A DNA stretch of 64,000 nt from a virus, in the IMG/VR virus record IMGVR_UViG_3300009081_000001, positions 1-64,000 of that record. The stretch is one strand, 5' to 3'. Below, piece after piece: positions 3,776 through 61,237 of this stretch. Each line of letters begins with the position of its first letter. Position 1 is the first letter of the stretch. The position numbers and the translations under genes are program-made. The notes beneath the pieces were generated by a model. It made no database searches and had not been told where the DNA came from. It was given only the letters and a program-made list of their open reading frames with translations.

Positions 3776-4443
3776 GTGCGGTCGAGCCTCACGAACTCAT
3801 AGACAACCGGCCCGGTGTACTGCTCTCTAAGCTCGATGTACCTGTCCATGTAGGCTTGTGCCTCTTCTGCAAGAGGGTTCTGCACGTTCAGGTCTTGCTT
3901 CCGTGCCCATTGTTCCAGCCTCGCCCTAGAGGCAGAGTAGGGCAGGAATGCCAAGTAAGCAGCGTAGTACAGTACAGCCAGCTCTCCCCACCTGTGCGTT
4001 CGCAAGTTGAGGGTATCCGTGTCCAATGCAAGCGGGCTGTGCGTGGCACCATAGTAAAGCGTGAAGCTAGTACCTCGCGGTTCCCTCGGGAGATAGAACT
4101 GCGTTTCCGTCGGAAATCCCACGACGTACCGCCTCGGCTCGTCGTTTAGTGCATACGCACCAGGCCGTATCTGCATCGGAGCAAGGTACTCTTGTGTAGA
4201 AGTGGACTCGAAGTAGCCGTACATATTGCGCACGTCTACCGCGTTCTCTGGCATATCGTACTCGTGTTGATCTGATACCACGGTGTAGCTGTTGCTCGAA
4301 GCAATGGGTACGTCCGTGGTCCACTGGGTTATAGCCAGATTGATGAACGTGTCCAGGTCAGTAGTAGTCCACTTCTTTGCAGCCGTATCCTTGAGGAACG
4401 TCTGCAGCTTGGAACGCAAGGTGGAGAGAGCTACCGTTGCCAT
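3772..4443 (-). CDS. Putative head-tail adaptor protein
   Basis: Immediately after the capsid gene; N-terminus LSTLRSKLQTFLKD...WTTTDLDTFINLAI is typical of adaptor proteins. Confidence 0.65.
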   Translation of the reverse strand: MATVALSTLRSKLQTFLKDTAAKKWTTTDLDTFINLAITQWTTDVPIASSNSYTVVSDQHEYDMPENAVDVRNMYGYFESTSTQEYLAPMQIRPGAYALNDEPRRYVVGFPTETQFYLPREPRGTSFTLYYGATHSPLALDTDTLNLRTHRWGELAVLYYAAYLAFLPYSASRARLEQWARKQDLNVQNPLAEEAQAYMDRYIELREQYTGPVVYEFVRLDRT

Positions 4444-57564: not shown

Positions 57565-57593
57565 TTGACAAGGATTCTGAACTATAGTATACT
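57565..57593 (+). promoter_or_regulatory. Dedicated promoter of the RAMP-like operon
   Basis: TTGACA-17-TATACT, then AGGAGG RBS before 57628. Confidence 0.8.
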
Positions 57594-57627
57594 GTTCACG
57601 TTCGCAATATAATAGGAGGGAACGAAA

Positions 57628-58248
57628 ATGGTACAAAAGAAATCGGAAGTTGTGGAAGTACCGGCACTCAGAATTGAGTTACTGTCAGTTACCTTGGTAG
57701 GGGATTCCCCGCTCATCTGTCACCGCTTCTCCAAGAAGGCGAAAAACCAAATCCTTGCCAGTCAGGGTAAGCGCGTGAAGACACGCGAGGCAAGGGATCC
57801 AGAGGGGGAAGGTATGGACGCTGCCTATACTCTGCCCGTCCCTGGAGCCTATGGGTTCCCCGCATCTGCTTTCAAGCAGGCTGCTGTCAGGGCGGCAAAG
57901 CAAGTGCCCGGCATGACAATGGTGGATACACAGGGATACTTCTTTATCAAGGCGGCAACGCCCGATGATGCAGAGCAGCTTGTCGGCCCCCTGCGCTACA
58001 GCGAAATGCAGATCAACGAGGATGCAGTTCGTCTCGCTGGCCCTGGTAGGCCGGTAGACCTGCGCTTTCGCCCCTACTTCCTTAACTGGGAAGTTGACCT
58101 TGAGATCGAGTACAATGCCAGCCTTGTCAGCCCAGAGCAGATCGTCTTTCTTCTGGACTCGGCAGGGTTTGGCGTGGGTGTGGGTGAGTGGAGGCCAGAG
58201 AAGGGCGGCAACTATGGTCGCTTCCACGTAAAGAAAGGGAATGAATAA
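57628..58248 (+). CDS. RAMP-fold (Cas7/Cas5/Cas6-superfamily-like) RNA-binding protein, stand-alone
   Basis: N-terminal strand VTLVGDSPLICH, YGFPASAFKQA (cf. RAMP IPGSSLKG), C-terminal Gly-rich loop AGFGVGVGEWRPEKGGNYGRF. Confidence 0.75.
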   Translation: MVQKKSEVVEVPALRIELLSVTLVGDSPLICHRFSKKAKNQILASQGKRVKTREARDPEGEGMDAAYTLPVPGAYGFPASAFKQAAVRAAKQVPGMTMVDTQGYFFIKAATPDDAEQLVGPLRYSEMQINEDAVRLAGPGRPVDLRFRPYFLNWEVDLEIEYNASLVSPEQIVFLLDSAGFGVGVGEWRPEKGGNYGRFHVKKGNE

Positions 58249-58250
58249 CT

Positions 58251-58808
58251 ATGTGGATGCCCGTCGAAGAGAGTGGTCGCTGTATCTACAGGTGCAAACC
58301 TGGCAGTCCTGTACCAGATGCACGAGCGCAAGAGATTGGAGAGTACATTGCTGACCTGGAAGAGAACAGCGGCATTACTCCTCATATCTTGCTCCAGGAT
58401 GCTACTAACCCCGAGTCCAAGCTACACGAGTTCTTTGAGTGGGACGATAAGAAGGCTGGCTACCACTGGCGTCTGCAGCAGGCGCGGCAGATCATCAATC
58501 ACTTTGAGATCGTCGTGGTCAATACCCGCGAGGAAGAAGAGACAAGGGTACGCGCCTGGCACAGTATCAACATCCGGGTTCAACCCCCCAAAGGACAGGA
58601 GTTTCACACGGAGACTGACAACGGGGAGCCCGAAATGCAACGGGTGTACGTCAACGCTATTCAGGCCCTCTCAGTAGAAGACACACGCAAGCAGGTTGTA
58701 GCCAACGCCCTCAGAGAATTGAACGGCTGGCGTCATCGCTATCAGACATACGACGAGTTCAATCCTATCTTCACCGGGATTGAGCAGCTTAGTCTTGCCG
58801 AGGCATAG
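58251..58808 (+). CDS. Accessory protein coupled to the RAMP-like gene
   Basis: Starts 2 nt after the RAMP stop; helical ITP..LL..A..PESKLHEFFEWDD..A...RLQQARQII. Confidence 0.7.
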   Translation: MWMPVEESGRCIYRCKPGSPVPDARAQEIGEYIADLEENSGITPHILLQDATNPESKLHEFFEWDDKKAGYHWRLQQARQIINHFEIVVVNTREEEETRVRAWHSINIRVQPPKGQEFHTETDNGEPEMQRVYVNAIQALSVEDTRKQVVANALRELNGWRHRYQTYDEFNPIFTGIEQLSLAEA

Positions 58809-59179
58809 GCAGGCAAGGCGAGGCGTAGCGGGGCTTGTTGAGGCTTGGTGGGGTTAGGCACGGCGCGGTGTGGCAAGGCAGTCTCGGCTAGGCGTGGCGT
58901 GGCCTGGCCCGGCCCGGCGCGGTGTGGCAGGCAAGGTATGGCAAGGCGGTGCAGGGTGTGACAAGGCCAGGCGAGGCTAGGCAGGCGAGGACCGGCGGGG
59001 CTTGTCACGGTGGGGCACGGCACGGCGGGGCAGGCAAGGTATGTCATGGCGGGGCAGGCGTGGCGATGTGTGGCGAGGCGAGGCGAGGCGCGGCGCGGCT
59101 GGGCGAGGTTCGGCGGGCGCGGCCTGGATTGGCGAGGCGGGGCACGTTCTGGCTAGGCTTGGTGGGGCAGGCAAGGTTT
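58808..59179 (+). ncRNA. GGY-NN pentamer array (68 pentamers, 8 GGCR tetramer punctuators), candidate guide RNA precursor
   Basis: 57 of 68 pentamers start with GGC/GGT and the other 11 differ by one base; the last two bases vary freely; begins at the stop codon of the accessory gene. Confidence 0.85.
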
Positions 59180-59221
59180 CATTTCCGTCGGAAATAGAAA
59201 ACTACAAGAAGGAGAAAGAGA

Positions 59222-59791
59222 ATGCCTAAGCAGTATACGGTTTACTGGACCAATTACTGGACCAACGAGTACATGATACCTCTCAGCTTTGCTGCAGAGT
59301 CAATGAGATACGACCCCGAGCAAAAAGCCTACGAGTTCAAGACAGATGTTGGGGGGTTCCTCATCCCCAAGCAGCAAGTCCTCTATGTAGAGTGCGGCAA
59401 GCACGTCGGCCCGGCGCAAGCCTTGATAGAAGCAGGAAAGAGGGCCGCTCAGAAGAGGGGCAAGAACATAGCCATGACAGAGATTGATATAGACGAACTG
59501 CTGTCTACCCTGCCACCGGGTGAGGATGATGAATGGGACGTAGCGTTCACGGAGGATGATATAAACGAGGCCAAGCGTAACAGGCTCTTTGGCCCTACAA
59601 CAACTCAGAAGAGAGAGCTGGTAATGGCGGCACTCGCGATCCGAGATGCAATCGAGGAATGGGGCTGTGTAAAAGCTCTTGCTTGCGATGACGATGAAAG
59701 CACATGGCGAGACTCCCTACCGGAAACCATAATGGCTGCCTATGATAAACTAGACGCTGCACTCTCTCCACTCTATGGCGACCCACTGTAG
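59222..59791 (+). CDS. Hypothetical protein
   Basis: AAGGAG RBS; 189 aa; flanked on both sides by the 15-bp palindrome. Confidence 0.6.
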   Translation: MPKQYTVYWTNYWTNEYMIPLSFAAESMRYDPEQKAYEFKTDVGGFLIPKQQVLYVECGKHVGPAQALIEAGKRAAQKRGKNIAMTEIDIDELLSTLPPGEDDEWDVAFTEDDINEAKRNRLFGPTTTQKRELVMAALAIRDAIEEWGCVKALACDDDESTWRDSLPETIMAAYDKLDAALSPLYGDPL

Positions 59792-59818: not shown

Positions 59819-61237
59819 ATGAGAGCGGGAATCATGGCGAGGGTGAGCACCGAGGAGCAGCTTGCGGGCTATTCTATCGGCGCTCAGGTAGATGCAATGC
59901 TCAAGTTCTGCGAGGAACAGGGCTGGCAGGTCATGGAAAGGTACATCGAAGAGGGTGTATCTGGCACAACGTCTAACCGGCCCGAGCTACAGAGAGCTTT
60001 GCGCGATGCAGAAGCGGGGAAACTAGATGTGCTGCTTACCCACCAGCTTGACCGCTTTTACCGAAACCTGCGCCTACAGATCGAGACGCTTGGTAAGCTA
60101 GGAGAGATGGGAGTTGGGTATCTATCTATCACCGAGAGGATTGACTACTCAACTCCCACCGGTATGCTATTCATGCAGATGTTGGGCGCGTTCAACGAGT
60201 ACTATTCCAGCAATCTGGCACGCGAGGTTAGGAAGGGCAAGCAGGGTAGAGCAGAGAGTGGTTTGACCAATGCAACGTTCTTGCCCCACGGTTACAAGAG
60301 GGTAGAGAAGGAAGCCGTCATAGAACCAGTAAGGGCAGAGACAATCCATTACATCTTCAAGCTATATGCAACAGGGCTTTACTCCTATCGGGCAATTGCA
60401 GATAGGCTCAATGCAGAAGGACACCCCGCAAGCAGTAGGAGTAAGGGAAAGTGGATCTGGCAAGCAGTGAGGGGTATCATTGAGAATCCCTACTACATCG
60501 GTCTTATCAGGCACAACGAAAAGATGTATCAGGGCAAGCACGAACCTATCATCGAGCGCAAGTTGTGGGATATGGCGCAACGAGTGAGGGAACAACGTGC
60601 AACATCGTACACTCATTCGAGGACAAAGGAAACTTTCATCTTGCGCGGCACCGGCCACTGTCTTGCCTGTGGTAGTAGGCTGTATGCAGAGAGTCATGGG
60701 AAGAATAGGTACTACCGTTGCAGTGGAAACCAAAAGGGGGTAAGTTGCACAGTTCCATTTGCAAGGGTGGAAAAGGTAGATGCAAGTTTGGCAGAGCTTG
60801 TATCTCACGCGCAACTACCAGGAAACTGGCGTGAAGAGATTGCAAGAGCTATGCAAGGGCCAGTTTCCAACGATGGCAACAAGCGCAAGTACTTGCAAGA
60901 GAAGTTGCGCCGGTTGCGTGAGCTGTACCTTGAGGATGACTTTACCAAGGAGGAGTACAATCAAAGGAAACGTGAATTGGAAAGTGAGATTGCAAGGCTA
61001 CAACCACCAGGGAAACCAGACGACATTGACGCCGAGTTGATTGCAAACCTGAGTAAACTGTGGGAGGGAGCTGAGTTGCAGCAACGCACCGACCTTGCAA
61101 ACATCCTCTTTCGTAGTGTAGAGGTAGATATGCAAGAGGAAAGGGTAGTTTCCTTTGAGTCGTACCCCGAACATGCAATGTTGTTCCGGCTTATCTTTGA
61201 GGAAAGGGAAGGGAAGTTCTACAATGGACAGGCATAA
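59819..61237 (+). CDS. Large serine recombinase (integrase)
   Basis: ARVST catalytic Ser, DRFYR, recombinase domain, zinc ribbon CLACG..YYRC..C, coiled coil. Confidence 0.95.
   Translation: MRAGIMARVSTEEQLAGYSIGAQVDAMLKFCEEQGWQVMERYIEEGVSGTTSNRPELQRALRDAEAGKLDVLLTHQLDRFYRNLRLQIETLGKLGEMGVGYLSITERIDYSTPTGMLFMQMLGAFNEYYSSNLAREVRKGKQGRAESGLTNATFLPHGYKRVEKEAVIEPVRAETIHYIFKLYATGLYSYRAIADRLNAEGHPASSRSKGKWIWQAVRGIIENPYYIGLIRHNEKMYQGKHEPIIERKLWDMAQRVREQRATSYTHSRTKETFILRGTGHCLACGSRLYAESHGKNRYYRCSGNQKGVSCTVPFARVEKVDASLAELVSHAQLPGNWREEIARAMQGPVSNDGNKRKYLQEKLRRLRELYLEDDFTKEEYNQRKRELESEIARLQPPGKPDDIDAELIANLSKLWEGAELQQRTDLANILFRSVEVDMQEERVVSFESYPEHAMLFRLIFEEREGKFYNGQA

What the first reader, a model, noticed from the sequence alone, without database searches (positions are those of the whole stretch)
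58808..59179. Array is punctuated into guide-sized units by 4-nt GGCA phase shifts
Seen: tetramers at 58808, 58877, 58926, 58980, 59029, 59053, 59112 (GGCG) and 59166 break the 5-nt phase into blocks of 13, 9, 10, 9, 4, 11, 10 and 2 pentamers. GGCAGGCAAGG recurs four times and both opens and closes the array. A slippage microsatellite would homogenise its units, whereas here positions 4-5 are diverse and 1-3 are conserved. Inference: the tetramers mark processing sites or filament boundaries, giving about six or seven guides carrying 18-26 informative bases, similar to a CRISPR spacer. How new units are written is unexplained.
Basis: partly seen in the sequence, partly recalled or inferred. 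Interest (0 to 1): 0.8.

Follow-up and report, generated by a model that had tools for sequence, protein, structure and literature searches.

The report
Staggered VIPR guide-RNA array junctions
The five-base repeat tract is the guide-RNA array of a phage VIPR system, a CRISPR-related RNA-guided DNA silencer first described in 2026, and its four-base GGCA steps are the conserved junctions that split it into separate guides, so it is a new example of a known kind.

Summary
An independent parser finds the same 4-nt steps, no 6-nt steps, 68 pentamers with G-G-Y fixed and NN variable, and spacing more regular than random placement (p about 0.001-0.007).

The tract belongs to a promoter-vipr-vap-array cassette (57565-59179). 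The 206-aa protein is a Cas7-like RAMP homologous to the solved SUSP1 Vipr protein. VIPR was published as 2026 bioRxiv preprints, and the GGCA step matches their "staggered vrRNA array" (Fig. S18), which they did not confirm by small-RNA sequencing.

- In 159 loci chosen by the protein alone, 106 carry an array. These hold about 700 4-nt steps (about 75% GGCA) against 13 6-nt steps, with blocks peaking at 9-11 pentamers.
- Cluster F mycobacteriophages differ by whole blocks bounded by GGCA.
- Block-sized guides from related arrays match phage genes under the published 1-nt-skip rule: 119/130 bases inside blocks, 21/86 (chance level) across the steps.

No target was found for this window's own guides, and no RNA data exist. 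Whether the steps are cleavage sites or only filament breaks is open.

The scan has already reported staggered VIPR arrays on other DNA (e.g. e1-6000340).

The parts
57565..57593 (+). Sigma-70-like promoter (TTGACA, 17-nt spacer, TATACT) upstream of vipr; likely start of the vipr-vap-array transcript
   Evidence: Consensus scan scores it 11 of 12. No terminator-like site lies between it and the end of the array. Function is inferred.
57628..58248 (+). vipr: 206-aa Cas7-like RAMP protein that binds one GGY/NN repeat per protomer
   Evidence: A family profile hits PDB 36pp 'SUSP1 Vipr protein' at E = 3e-11 over the thumb and G-loop region. The AF2 model has pLDDT 90.6. The best Foldseek hits are Csm3 and type VII Cas7. 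It matches phrog_4652. A homologue lies next to 27 of 35 arrays that were found by DNA pattern alone.
58251..58808 (+). vap-like accessory gene (185 aa, phrog_15946); its TAG stop overlaps the first GGCA of the array
   Evidence: It co-occurs with vipr and an array in 18 of 35 loci, in varying gene order. The AF2 model has pLDDT 91.5. There is no clear PDB fold match; residues 22-141 give only weak winged-helix-like hits at Z 5-6.
58808..59179 (+). Staggered vrRNA array: 68 GGYNN pentamers plus eight 4-nt GGCA/GGCG junctions; G-rich strand is co-directional with vipr
   Evidence: Base composition is 50% G. No Rfam family, including hammerhead, matches the region.
58812..58876 (+). Guide block 1, 13 pentamers (26 informative bases), preceded by GGCA at 58808
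58881..58925 (+). Guide block 2, 9 pentamers, preceded by GGCA at 58877
58930..58979 (+). Guide block 3, 10 pentamers, preceded by GGCA at 58926
58984..59028 (+). Guide block 4, 9 pentamers, preceded by GGCA at 58980
59033..59052 (+). Short block 5, 4 pentamers, preceded by GGCA at 59029; looks like a truncated copy of the start of block 3 and is probably not a working guide
   Evidence: TRF reports a 24-nt period across 59024-59090.
59057..59111 (+). Guide block 6, 11 pentamers, preceded by GGCA at 59053
59116..59165 (+). Guide block 7, 10 pentamers, preceded by GGCG at 59112
59166..59179 (+). Terminal GGCA plus two pentamers: array-closing remnant. Cluster F arrays likewise end in a short conserved terminal block.

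Best explanation
The tract is the vrRNA array of a VIPR (Viral Interference Programmable Repeat) system of the 'staggered' architecture. It is probably transcribed from the promoter at 57565 as one vipr-vap-array RNA. Vipr protomers bind one GGY each and expose the two following bases. A run of 9-13 such units is one guide, which reads double-stranded DNA two bases at a time and skips every third target base. At each GGC-A-GGC junction only one base separates two GGY motifs, so the 5-nt register that neighbouring protomers need is broken. The filament therefore ends there and the next guide begins. This yields six full-size guides of 18-26 informative bases, plus a 4-unit block and a 2-unit remnant. 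By analogy with studied VIPRs, the guides silence genes of competing phages or other mobile elements.

Shown here: the anatomy, the homology of the protein to Vipr, family-wide conservation of the junction and of block length, whole-block turnover between relatives, and block-limited complementarity to phage genes in related arrays.

Inferred: transcription, the physical break or cleavage at the junction, and the targets of this particular phage.
For: 1. Identity of the system. The Vipr family profile hits the solved SUSP1 Vipr chain (36pp) at E = 3e-11. The residues that read G2 and Y3 in SUSP1 (R138, W178, R179) align to R148, W188 and R189, which are invariant or nearly so; D177 aligns to E187. 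The fold is Cas7/Csm3-like.

2. [quoted passage not shown]

3. Family-wide conservation in samples chosen by the protein, not by the repeat.
- 48 of 79 genome loci carry an array, with 148 GGCA among about 215 4-nt steps, 3 6-nt steps, and blocks peaking at 9-10 units.
- 58 of 80 viral loci carry an array: 67 arrays lie on the vipr strand against 1 opposite, with 378 GGCA among 480 4-nt steps, 10 6-nt steps, and a block mode of 9-11 units.
- The junction logo is GGC-A-GGC-R, with C at 90% against 75% in ordinary units.
- GGCA also precedes the first block in 25 parsed arrays.

4. Whole-block turnover in Cluster F mycobacteriophages.
- SwagPigglett equals ByChance plus one block of 59 nt.
- Donkeykong equals Pippy plus two blocks, 113 nt in all.
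- Quico carries different internal blocks between the same leader and the same terminal block.

5. Guides stop at the steps. I scanned 558 distinct 9-16-unit blocks against 4.4 Mb of fetched loci under the 1-nt-skip rule.
- Three hits were stronger than any hit in the reversed and shuffled controls or under the skip-0 and skip-2 rules; the swapped-NN control gave one weaker hit below E = 0.001. They were 24/26 in a ParB-like gene, 26/30 in the catalytic region of the Donkeykong integrase, and 18/18 in a major tail protein.
- A second, unrelated array hits the same tail-protein site, shifted by one codon.
- Over six hits, 119/130 bases match inside the blocks but 21/86 do in the units beyond the 4-nt steps.
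- The skipped base is the third codon position.

6. No self-targets. The window's blocks match its own genome no better than 4 mismatches in 20.
Against: - No RNA data exist for this phage. The only run that holds it is the DNA source metagenome.
- None of the window's six full blocks found a target. Exact scans of viral and metagenome contigs gave nothing, and the mismatch-tolerant local scan gave nothing.
- Whole-block indels could arise simply from recombination between identical junction sequences, whatever the RNA does.
- Only three target hits are significant after correcting for 558 guides, and the database searched consisted of loci that themselves carry VIPR.
- One junction is GGCG, and two blocks (4 and 2 units) are too short to be guides.
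- The preprint itself did not confirm staggered arrays by small-RNA sequencing.
Confidence: 0.8

Rival explanations
1. The array is a VIPR RNA, but it is not cut into units. One long RNA carries a string of Vipr filaments, and the 4-nt steps are only register breaks or flexible hinges. Adjacent blocks then act together on one particle.
For: No nuclease, ribozyme or tail lies between the blocks. The structure preprint notes natural vrRNAs of up to 30 repeats. Some related arrays have blocks of 20-40 or more units.
Against: The Fig. S18 legend speaks of 'individual processed vrRNAs'. Neighbouring blocks match unrelated places, since the extension across steps is at chance level, 21/86. Blocks are gained and lost singly. 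None of these points excludes a beads-on-a-string RNA.
Confidence: 0.13
2. The steps are neutral scars of replication slippage or 1-nt deletions in a pentanucleotide microsatellite, with no role in unit definition.
For: Single-pentamer indels do occur inside blocks between close relatives, for example Saal against SwagPigglett, and Philus.
Against: The spacing is regular (p about 0.001). About 75-79% of the steps have the same sequence, GGCA. 4-nt steps outnumber 6-nt steps by about 50 to 1 across hundreds of independent arrays. The NN positions are not homogenised.
Confidence: 0.03
3. The tract acts as DNA, for example as iterons or a protein-binding or R-loop-forming site near the integrase, or it codes for a Gly/Ala-rich peptide. 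On this reading it is not a guide RNA.
For: The strand asymmetry is strong, with 50% G. Several GenBank records of Cluster F phages annotate a CDS across the equivalent array.
Against: No ORF spans the array in the window. A 5-nt period with 4-nt steps cannot hold a reading frame. The array always travels with vipr on the same strand, whatever the neighbouring genes are. Blocks read as gapped copies of phage genes.
Confidence: 0.03

Closest known systems
VIPR systems with 'staggered vrRNA arrays' (bioRxiv 10.64898/2026.04.26.720920, Fig. S18)
   Same: A lone Cas7-like Vipr gene, a small vap gene, and a co-directional array of GGY/NN pentamers. Consecutive guides abut with a 1-nt overlap, which is the 4-nt GGCA step. 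Guide length falls within the published 9-16 repeats.
   Different: Nothing essential differs. This is another locus, in an uncultured 87-kb freshwater-sediment phage. The preprint gives the architecture only as a supplementary diagram and did not confirm it by small-RNA sequencing. The statistics, the whole-block turnover and the block-limited targets shown here are additions. The VIPR type (I-VII) could not be assigned, because the figures and data tables are not held.
Type II VIPR of Escherichia phage SUSP1 (structures 36pp/36pk; bioRxiv 10.64898/2026.04.26.720927)
   Same: The Vipr proteins are homologous, with conserved residues in the thumb and the G-loop. The GGY/NN code is the same, and in this clade the 1-nt-skip rule is supported. 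One protomer binds one repeat.
   Different: Each SUSP1 vrRNA is a separate RNA of about 100 nt, with an invariable 3' tail of about 40 nt that folds into a pseudoknot and caps the filament. Here no tail, pseudoknot or spacer lies between guides; a single missing base is the only delimiter. The Vipr proteins align only over their C-terminal halves.
CRISPR arrays and Class 1 Cas7 filaments
   Same: A RAMP protein polymerises on a guide RNA, with thumb-induced periodic base flipping. The array is made of modular units that are gained and lost whole. The targets are mobile elements.
   Different: There is no repeat-spacer alternation. The conserved GGY 'repeat' is interleaved with the guide every 5 nt. 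No cas1/cas2 or other adaptation gene is present. Units are delimited by a 1-nt register shift rather than by a repeat of about 30 nt. The system is carried by a phage.
Hammerhead-ribozyme-interspersed VIPR arrays (same preprint, Fig. S19)
   Same: Several pentamer-coded guides sit in one transcript.
   Different: In those arrays guides are released by self-cleaving ribozymes lying between them. No Rfam family, hammerhead included, matches this region.

Membership tests
VIPR system | A Vipr protein: a minimal single-RRM RAMP with a G-loop and a thumb, homologous to SUSP1 Vipr | tested here: met
   The family profile hits PDB 36pp_D 'SUSP1 Vipr protein' at E = 3e-11. The AF2 model (pLDDT 90.6) matches Csm3 and type VII Cas7 chains by Foldseek at E about 1e-5.
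VIPR system | Residues that read the GGY motif (SUSP1 R138, D177, W178, R179) | tested here: met
   In the HMM alignment, numbered against the preprint, these align to window R148, E187, W188 and R189. R148 and R189 are invariant, W188 is at least 90% conserved, and position 187 is E or D across the family. H17 and K33 lie outside the aligned stretch and were not placed.
VIPR system | An adjacent non-coding array of alternating GGY/NN pentamers on the vipr strand | tested here: met
   68 pentamers lie at 58808-59179 on the + strand, directly after vap. Among relatives, 67 arrays lie on the vipr strand against 1 opposite.
VIPR system | A vipr-accessory (vap) gene in the locus | tested here: inconclusive
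   The 185-aa gene at 58251-58808 co-occurs with vipr and an array in 18 of 35 loci. Its equivalence to one of the published vap1-6 genes could not be checked. Its fold gives only weak winged-helix-like matches at Z 5-6.
VIPR system | vrRNAs are expressed and co-purify with Vipr | not testable with these tools
   No RNA run holds the locus.
VIPR system | Guides match targets by the 1-nt-skip (NNx) rule | tested here: inconclusive
   For this window no target was found. For sister arrays of the same Vipr clade the rule is met: three hits fall below E = 0.001 with skip 1, and none with skip 0 or 2 or with the reversed and shuffled controls. The swapped-NN control gave one weaker hit.
Staggered vrRNA array (sub-architecture) | Consecutive guides abut at positions that overlap by 1 nt, with no tail or ribozyme between them | tested here: met
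   There are eight GGCA/GGCG steps, and GGCAG and GGCNN share one G. Nothing else is conserved at the junction. There is no Rfam match.
Staggered vrRNA array (sub-architecture) | RNA ends coincide with the junctions | not testable with these tools
   No RNA data exist. The preprint also lacks small-RNA sequencing for this architecture.
CRISPR-Cas | A repeat-spacer array together with cas1/cas2 adaptation genes | tested here: not met
   There is no repeat-spacer structure. The neighbouring genes give no Cas family hit in Pfam, NCBIfam or PADLOC. The locus works like a Class 1 filament but is not a CRISPR locus.

The most novel reading that the evidence does not exclude
In this tail-less VIPR clade the single-base register shift GGC-A-GGC may be the whole delimiter. 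On this reading it nucleates or caps Vipr filaments, and it sets guide length at about two helical turns (9-12 protomers). It would also expose the only unprotected phosphodiesters, so that host RNases or Vipr/Vap can cut there. That would be a ruler-and-footprint route to guide maturation needing no repeat hairpin, pseudoknot or ribozyme. The identical junctions would in addition act as recombination points through which phages swap or acquire whole guides, which would be the missing 'writing' mechanism.
Probability: 0.4. Interest if true: 0.55.

Novelty: new member of a known kind. Interest (0 to 1): 0.3.

Why it matters
VIPR is a very recent discovery: an RNA-guided DNA-binding system that uses a gapped code and is proposed as an ancestor of CRISPR effectors. 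The staggered architecture seen here appears to be the commonest form in environmental phages and prophages, occurring in 106 of 159 protein-selected loci across many phyla. It is nevertheless the form that the preprints left without RNA evidence. Together these give a rule for calling individual guides in such arrays, and hence for predicting targets and reprogramming them. They also point to an open question, namely how a guide is delimited by one missing base. For this particular window the result is mainly a correct annotation of a cassette that databases call hypothetical.

Tried and rejected
**Target searches for the window's own guides (exact scans, 1-nt-skip pattern)**
- Blocks 7 and 3, and the 3' ten units of block 1, against viral contigs: 0 hits.
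- Block 1 in full, and its central 11 units, against metagenome contigs: 0 hits.

**Target searches for guides of other arrays**
- The conserved Cluster F block, scanned against viral contigs, gave one hit in an AT-rich tail-fibre-like gene. About 0.3-0.5 hits were expected by chance and the 11th unit fails, so I judge it a chance match.
- Two guides from gut MAG arrays (L187, L191) gave 0 hits.
- One Rhizobium prophage guide, searched with up to 3 mismatches in 401 genomes of its family, gave 2 hits against 7 for the control, so there is no signal.
- A first local scan of 1.1 Mb gave no signal. Only the enlarged 4.4-Mb set did.

- Sequencing runs: no RNA holder is listed. The only holder is the probable source DNA run, a freshwater sediment metagenome.
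- The host could not be inferred. Vipr relatives at 47% identity or less are spread over many phyla.

**Other checks**
- Flanking proteins of the Cluster F arrays at first looked unrelated when compared position by position with BLASTP. Clustering showed that the gene order differs, array-vipr-vap instead of vipr-vap-array.
- Vap fold: no Foldseek match at E < 0.001. VIA-align gives Z of 6.4 or less, with weak helical-hairpin and winged-helix-like rows. No fold is claimed.
- A coding reading is rejected: no ORF spans the array.
- A helical-phasing idea for duplex DNA is rejected: the mean period is 4.9 bp, which drifts away from 10.5 bp per turn rather than correcting towards it.
- An early TRAP-like or sponge-RNA idea, and an R-loop or origin idea, were dropped once the Vipr homology was found.

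Full report
**1. The observation**

- Positions 1-3 are G (65/68), G (62/68) and C or T (52 and 14 of 68). Positions 4-5 use all four bases.
- I also parsed the region with a dynamic-programming chain that scores GGC or GGT at each unit start and allows 4-, 5- or 6-nt steps at a penalty. It returned the same six internal 4-nt steps (58877, 58926, 58980, 59029, 59053, 59112) and no 6-nt step.
- GGCAGGCAAGG occurs four times in the window, all inside the array and including both ends.
- The array is unique in the 87-kb genome, an IMG/VR record with terminal repeats.
- Random placement of the dividers seldom gives spacing this even (p = 0.0007 to 0.007).

**2. What it belongs to**

A pattern scan of IMG/VR for seven consecutive GGCNN units found more than 120 contigs. 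I clustered the ORFs within 3.5 kb of the 35 arrays that have 4-nt steps.
- One protein family lies next to 27 of them, always on the G-rich strand. The window's 206-aa ORF (57628-58248, phrog_4652) is a member.
- A second family lies next to 18 of them. The 185-aa ORF (58251-58808, phrog_15946) is a member.
- The gene order varies. It is vipr-vap-array here and array-vipr-vap in Cluster F mycobacteriophages, whose arrays had already surfaced by blastn.

The 206-aa family has more than 1,400 members, all unnamed.
- Its profile hits one solved structure, chain 36pp_D 'SUSP1 Vipr protein', at E = 3e-11.
- The AlphaFold model (pLDDT 90.6) matches Csm3 and type VII Cas7 subunits.

**3. What is published**

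VIPR (Viral Interference Programmable Repeat) systems were described in three 2026 bioRxiv preprints.
- The first reports a lone ancestral RAMP (Vipr), an accessory gene (vap), and vrRNAs made of 9-16 YNNGG repeats. The NN bases alone read double-stranded DNA, skipping one target base per repeat. The targets are competing phages and satellites (10.64898/2026.04.26.720920).
- The structure paper shows one protomer per repeat, and two neighbouring protomers jointly holding each GGY. Residues R138, D177, W178 and R179 read the bases. A 3' pseudoknot caps the SUSP1 filament (10.64898/2026.04.26.720927).
- Counting along the HMM alignment, those residues fall on window R148, E187, W188 and R189, which are invariant or nearly so in the family.
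- The first preprint also lists 'staggered arrays with overlapping vrRNAs'. The Fig. S18 legend says that individual vrRNAs derive from '1 nt overlapping positions', so that the end of one marks the start of the next. The text adds that only the ribozyme and single-vrRNA architectures were confirmed by small-RNA sequencing.

So the finding re-derives a published but unvalidated architecture.

**4. Is the step a family trait?**

To avoid circularity I drew two samples by the protein alone.
- 79 genome loci from many phyla: 48 carry an array, all on the vipr strand. They hold about 215 4-nt steps, 148 of them GGCA, against 3 6-nt steps. Inner blocks peak at 9-10 units.
- 80 viral loci: 58 carry arrays, 67 on the vipr strand and 1 opposite. 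They hold 480 4-nt steps, 378 of them GGCA, against 10 6-nt steps. The block mode is 9-11 units.
- The junction logo is GGC-A-GGC-R. C stands at 90% in the two junction triplets, against about 75% elsewhere, and nothing further is conserved.
- GGCA also stands immediately before the first block of many arrays, as it does here.

Each unit is therefore best written as GGCA followed by n pentamers.

**5.

Ten Cluster F mycobacteriophages share the module at 92-100% identity in the flanks. Parsed side by side, their arrays share a leader and a terminal block.
- SwagPigglett has one extra 11-unit block plus GGCA (59 nt) compared with ByChance.
- Donkeykong has two extra blocks (113 nt) compared with Pippy.
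- Quico has different internal blocks.
- All these differences begin and end at GGCA.
- Smaller changes also occur: NN substitutions, and loss or gain of a single pentamer where two neighbouring units are identical.

This fits modular units. It could also be produced by recombination between identical junctions, so it is supporting evidence rather than decisive evidence.

**6. A functional test by sequence**

I used the NNx rule and allowed 15% mismatches.

Three hits have per-guide expectations of 3e-6 to 6e-5. The best hits of the reversed and shuffled controls and of the skip-0 and skip-2 rules lie at 4e-3 or weaker, and the swapped-NN control gave one hit at 9e-4.
- L233 block 1 (13 units) matches a ParB-like gene at 24/26.
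- L280 block 1 (15 units) matches the catalytic C-terminal region of the integrase of mycobacteriophage Donkeykong at 26/30.
- L277 block 1 (9 units) matches a major tail protein gene at 18/18. A block from an unrelated Mesorhizobium-MAG array hits the same site, shifted by one codon, at 16/18.

Two further hits, in a tail sheath gene and a neck protein gene, are individually not significant.

Over the six hits, 119 of 130 guide bases match inside the blocks. Only 21 of 86 match when the neighbouring blocks are extended in register across the 4-nt steps, which is the 25% expected by chance. The skipped base is the third codon position in every case.

This is direct sequence evidence that, in this clade, a GGCA-bounded block is one guide.

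**7. This window's own guides**

No target was found for the window's own guides.
- The five exact scans were empty.
- The local scan gave no hit.
- The best matches in the phage's own genome have at least 20% mismatched bases, so there is no self-targeting.
The source is a freshwater sediment metagenome with no RNA run.

The failure therefore says little.

**8. Context in the window**

A near-consensus promoter lies at 57565-57593. No terminator-like site lies before the end of the array. The vap stop codon overlaps the first GGCA. All of this suggests a single transcript. No Rfam family matches the region. Vap folds confidently but has no clear structural relative. Downstream lie a 189-aa ORF without relatives and a large serine recombinase.

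**9. Verdict**

The thing itself is a new member of a kind published in 2026. The same scan has already reported several staggered VIPR arrays on other DNA.

Two questions remain open and worth an experiment. How does a single missing base delimit a guide: by cleavage or only by a break in the filament? And how are new blocks acquired?

Noticed in passing
L001 3952-4338 (Donkeykong gp48); L210 713-901 (Pippy gp47); L212 713-901 (Zizzle gp53); L215 508-672 (Gorge gp53); L217 455-613 (ByChance gp39): GenBank records of Cluster F mycobacteriophages annotate 'hypothetical protein' CDSs across the pentamer array, while Quico leaves it unannotated. These CDSs are probably artefacts of a G-rich non-coding vrRNA array. 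The vipr and vap genes are annotated as hypothetical proteins throughout.
   Followed up: partly
L215 709-1926 (Gorge gp54): In phage Gorge, vipr and vap are annotated as one 1,218-bp CDS. In sister phages they are two genes of 747 and 456 bp. This may be a real fusion, a frameshift or an annotation choice.
   Followed up: no
window 59033-59052 compared with 58930-58949: The 4-unit block 5 (GGCAA GGTAT GTCAT GGCGG) is nearly the same as the first four units of block 3 (GGCAA GGTAT GGCAA GGCGG). It looks like a truncated duplicate made by recombination at a junction.
   Followed up: partly
window 59181-59195: A small hairpin (ATTTCC, loop GTC, GGAAAT) follows the last pentamer directly. Cluster F arrays end in a GGCTGG-GCAA-CCAGCC hairpin with a GNRA loop (L002 about 4228-4243). 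These may be 3'-end structures of the primary transcript.
   Followed up: no
window 59222-59791 and 59819-61237: A 189-aa ORF with no hit in Pfam, PHROGs, PADLOC or NCBIfam starts with an exact 12-nt tandem duplication (59242-59265). A large serine recombinase (Resolvase, Recombinase and Zn-ribbon domains) follows it. The VIPR cassette therefore sits beside the integration module.
   Followed up: partly
L280 4225-4323 (array) and L001 196-240 (target): A 15-unit guide on an IMG/VR prophage-type contig spells 26 of 30 bases of the conserved C-terminal catalytic region (QLGHESIQITVDTYT) of the tyrosine integrase of mycobacteriophage Donkeykong. This is a candidate case of one actinobacterial element aiming at Cluster F phages.
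   Followed up: partly
L277 block 1 and L151 block 1, both targeting L268 1318-1346: Two unrelated arrays, one on a viral contig and one in a Mesorhizobium MAG, carry guides to the same site in a major tail protein gene, offset by exactly one codon. This suggests convergent or shared targeting of a conserved motif.
   Followed up: partly
window array and L131-L300 arrays: Units with T at position 2 (GTC-NN, GTT-NN) are the commonest departure from GGY. The window has GTTGA, GTCTC, GTCAC, GTCAT and GTTCT. In this clade the motif is therefore closer to G-K-Y than to strict GGY.
   Followed up: no
L019, L055, L095, L097, L101, L117: Some IMG/VR tracts matching GGCNN run for 70-300 units with no 4-nt step, or with 6-nt steps. 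They may be a different VIPR architecture or something unrelated, and they were not examined.
   Followed up: no
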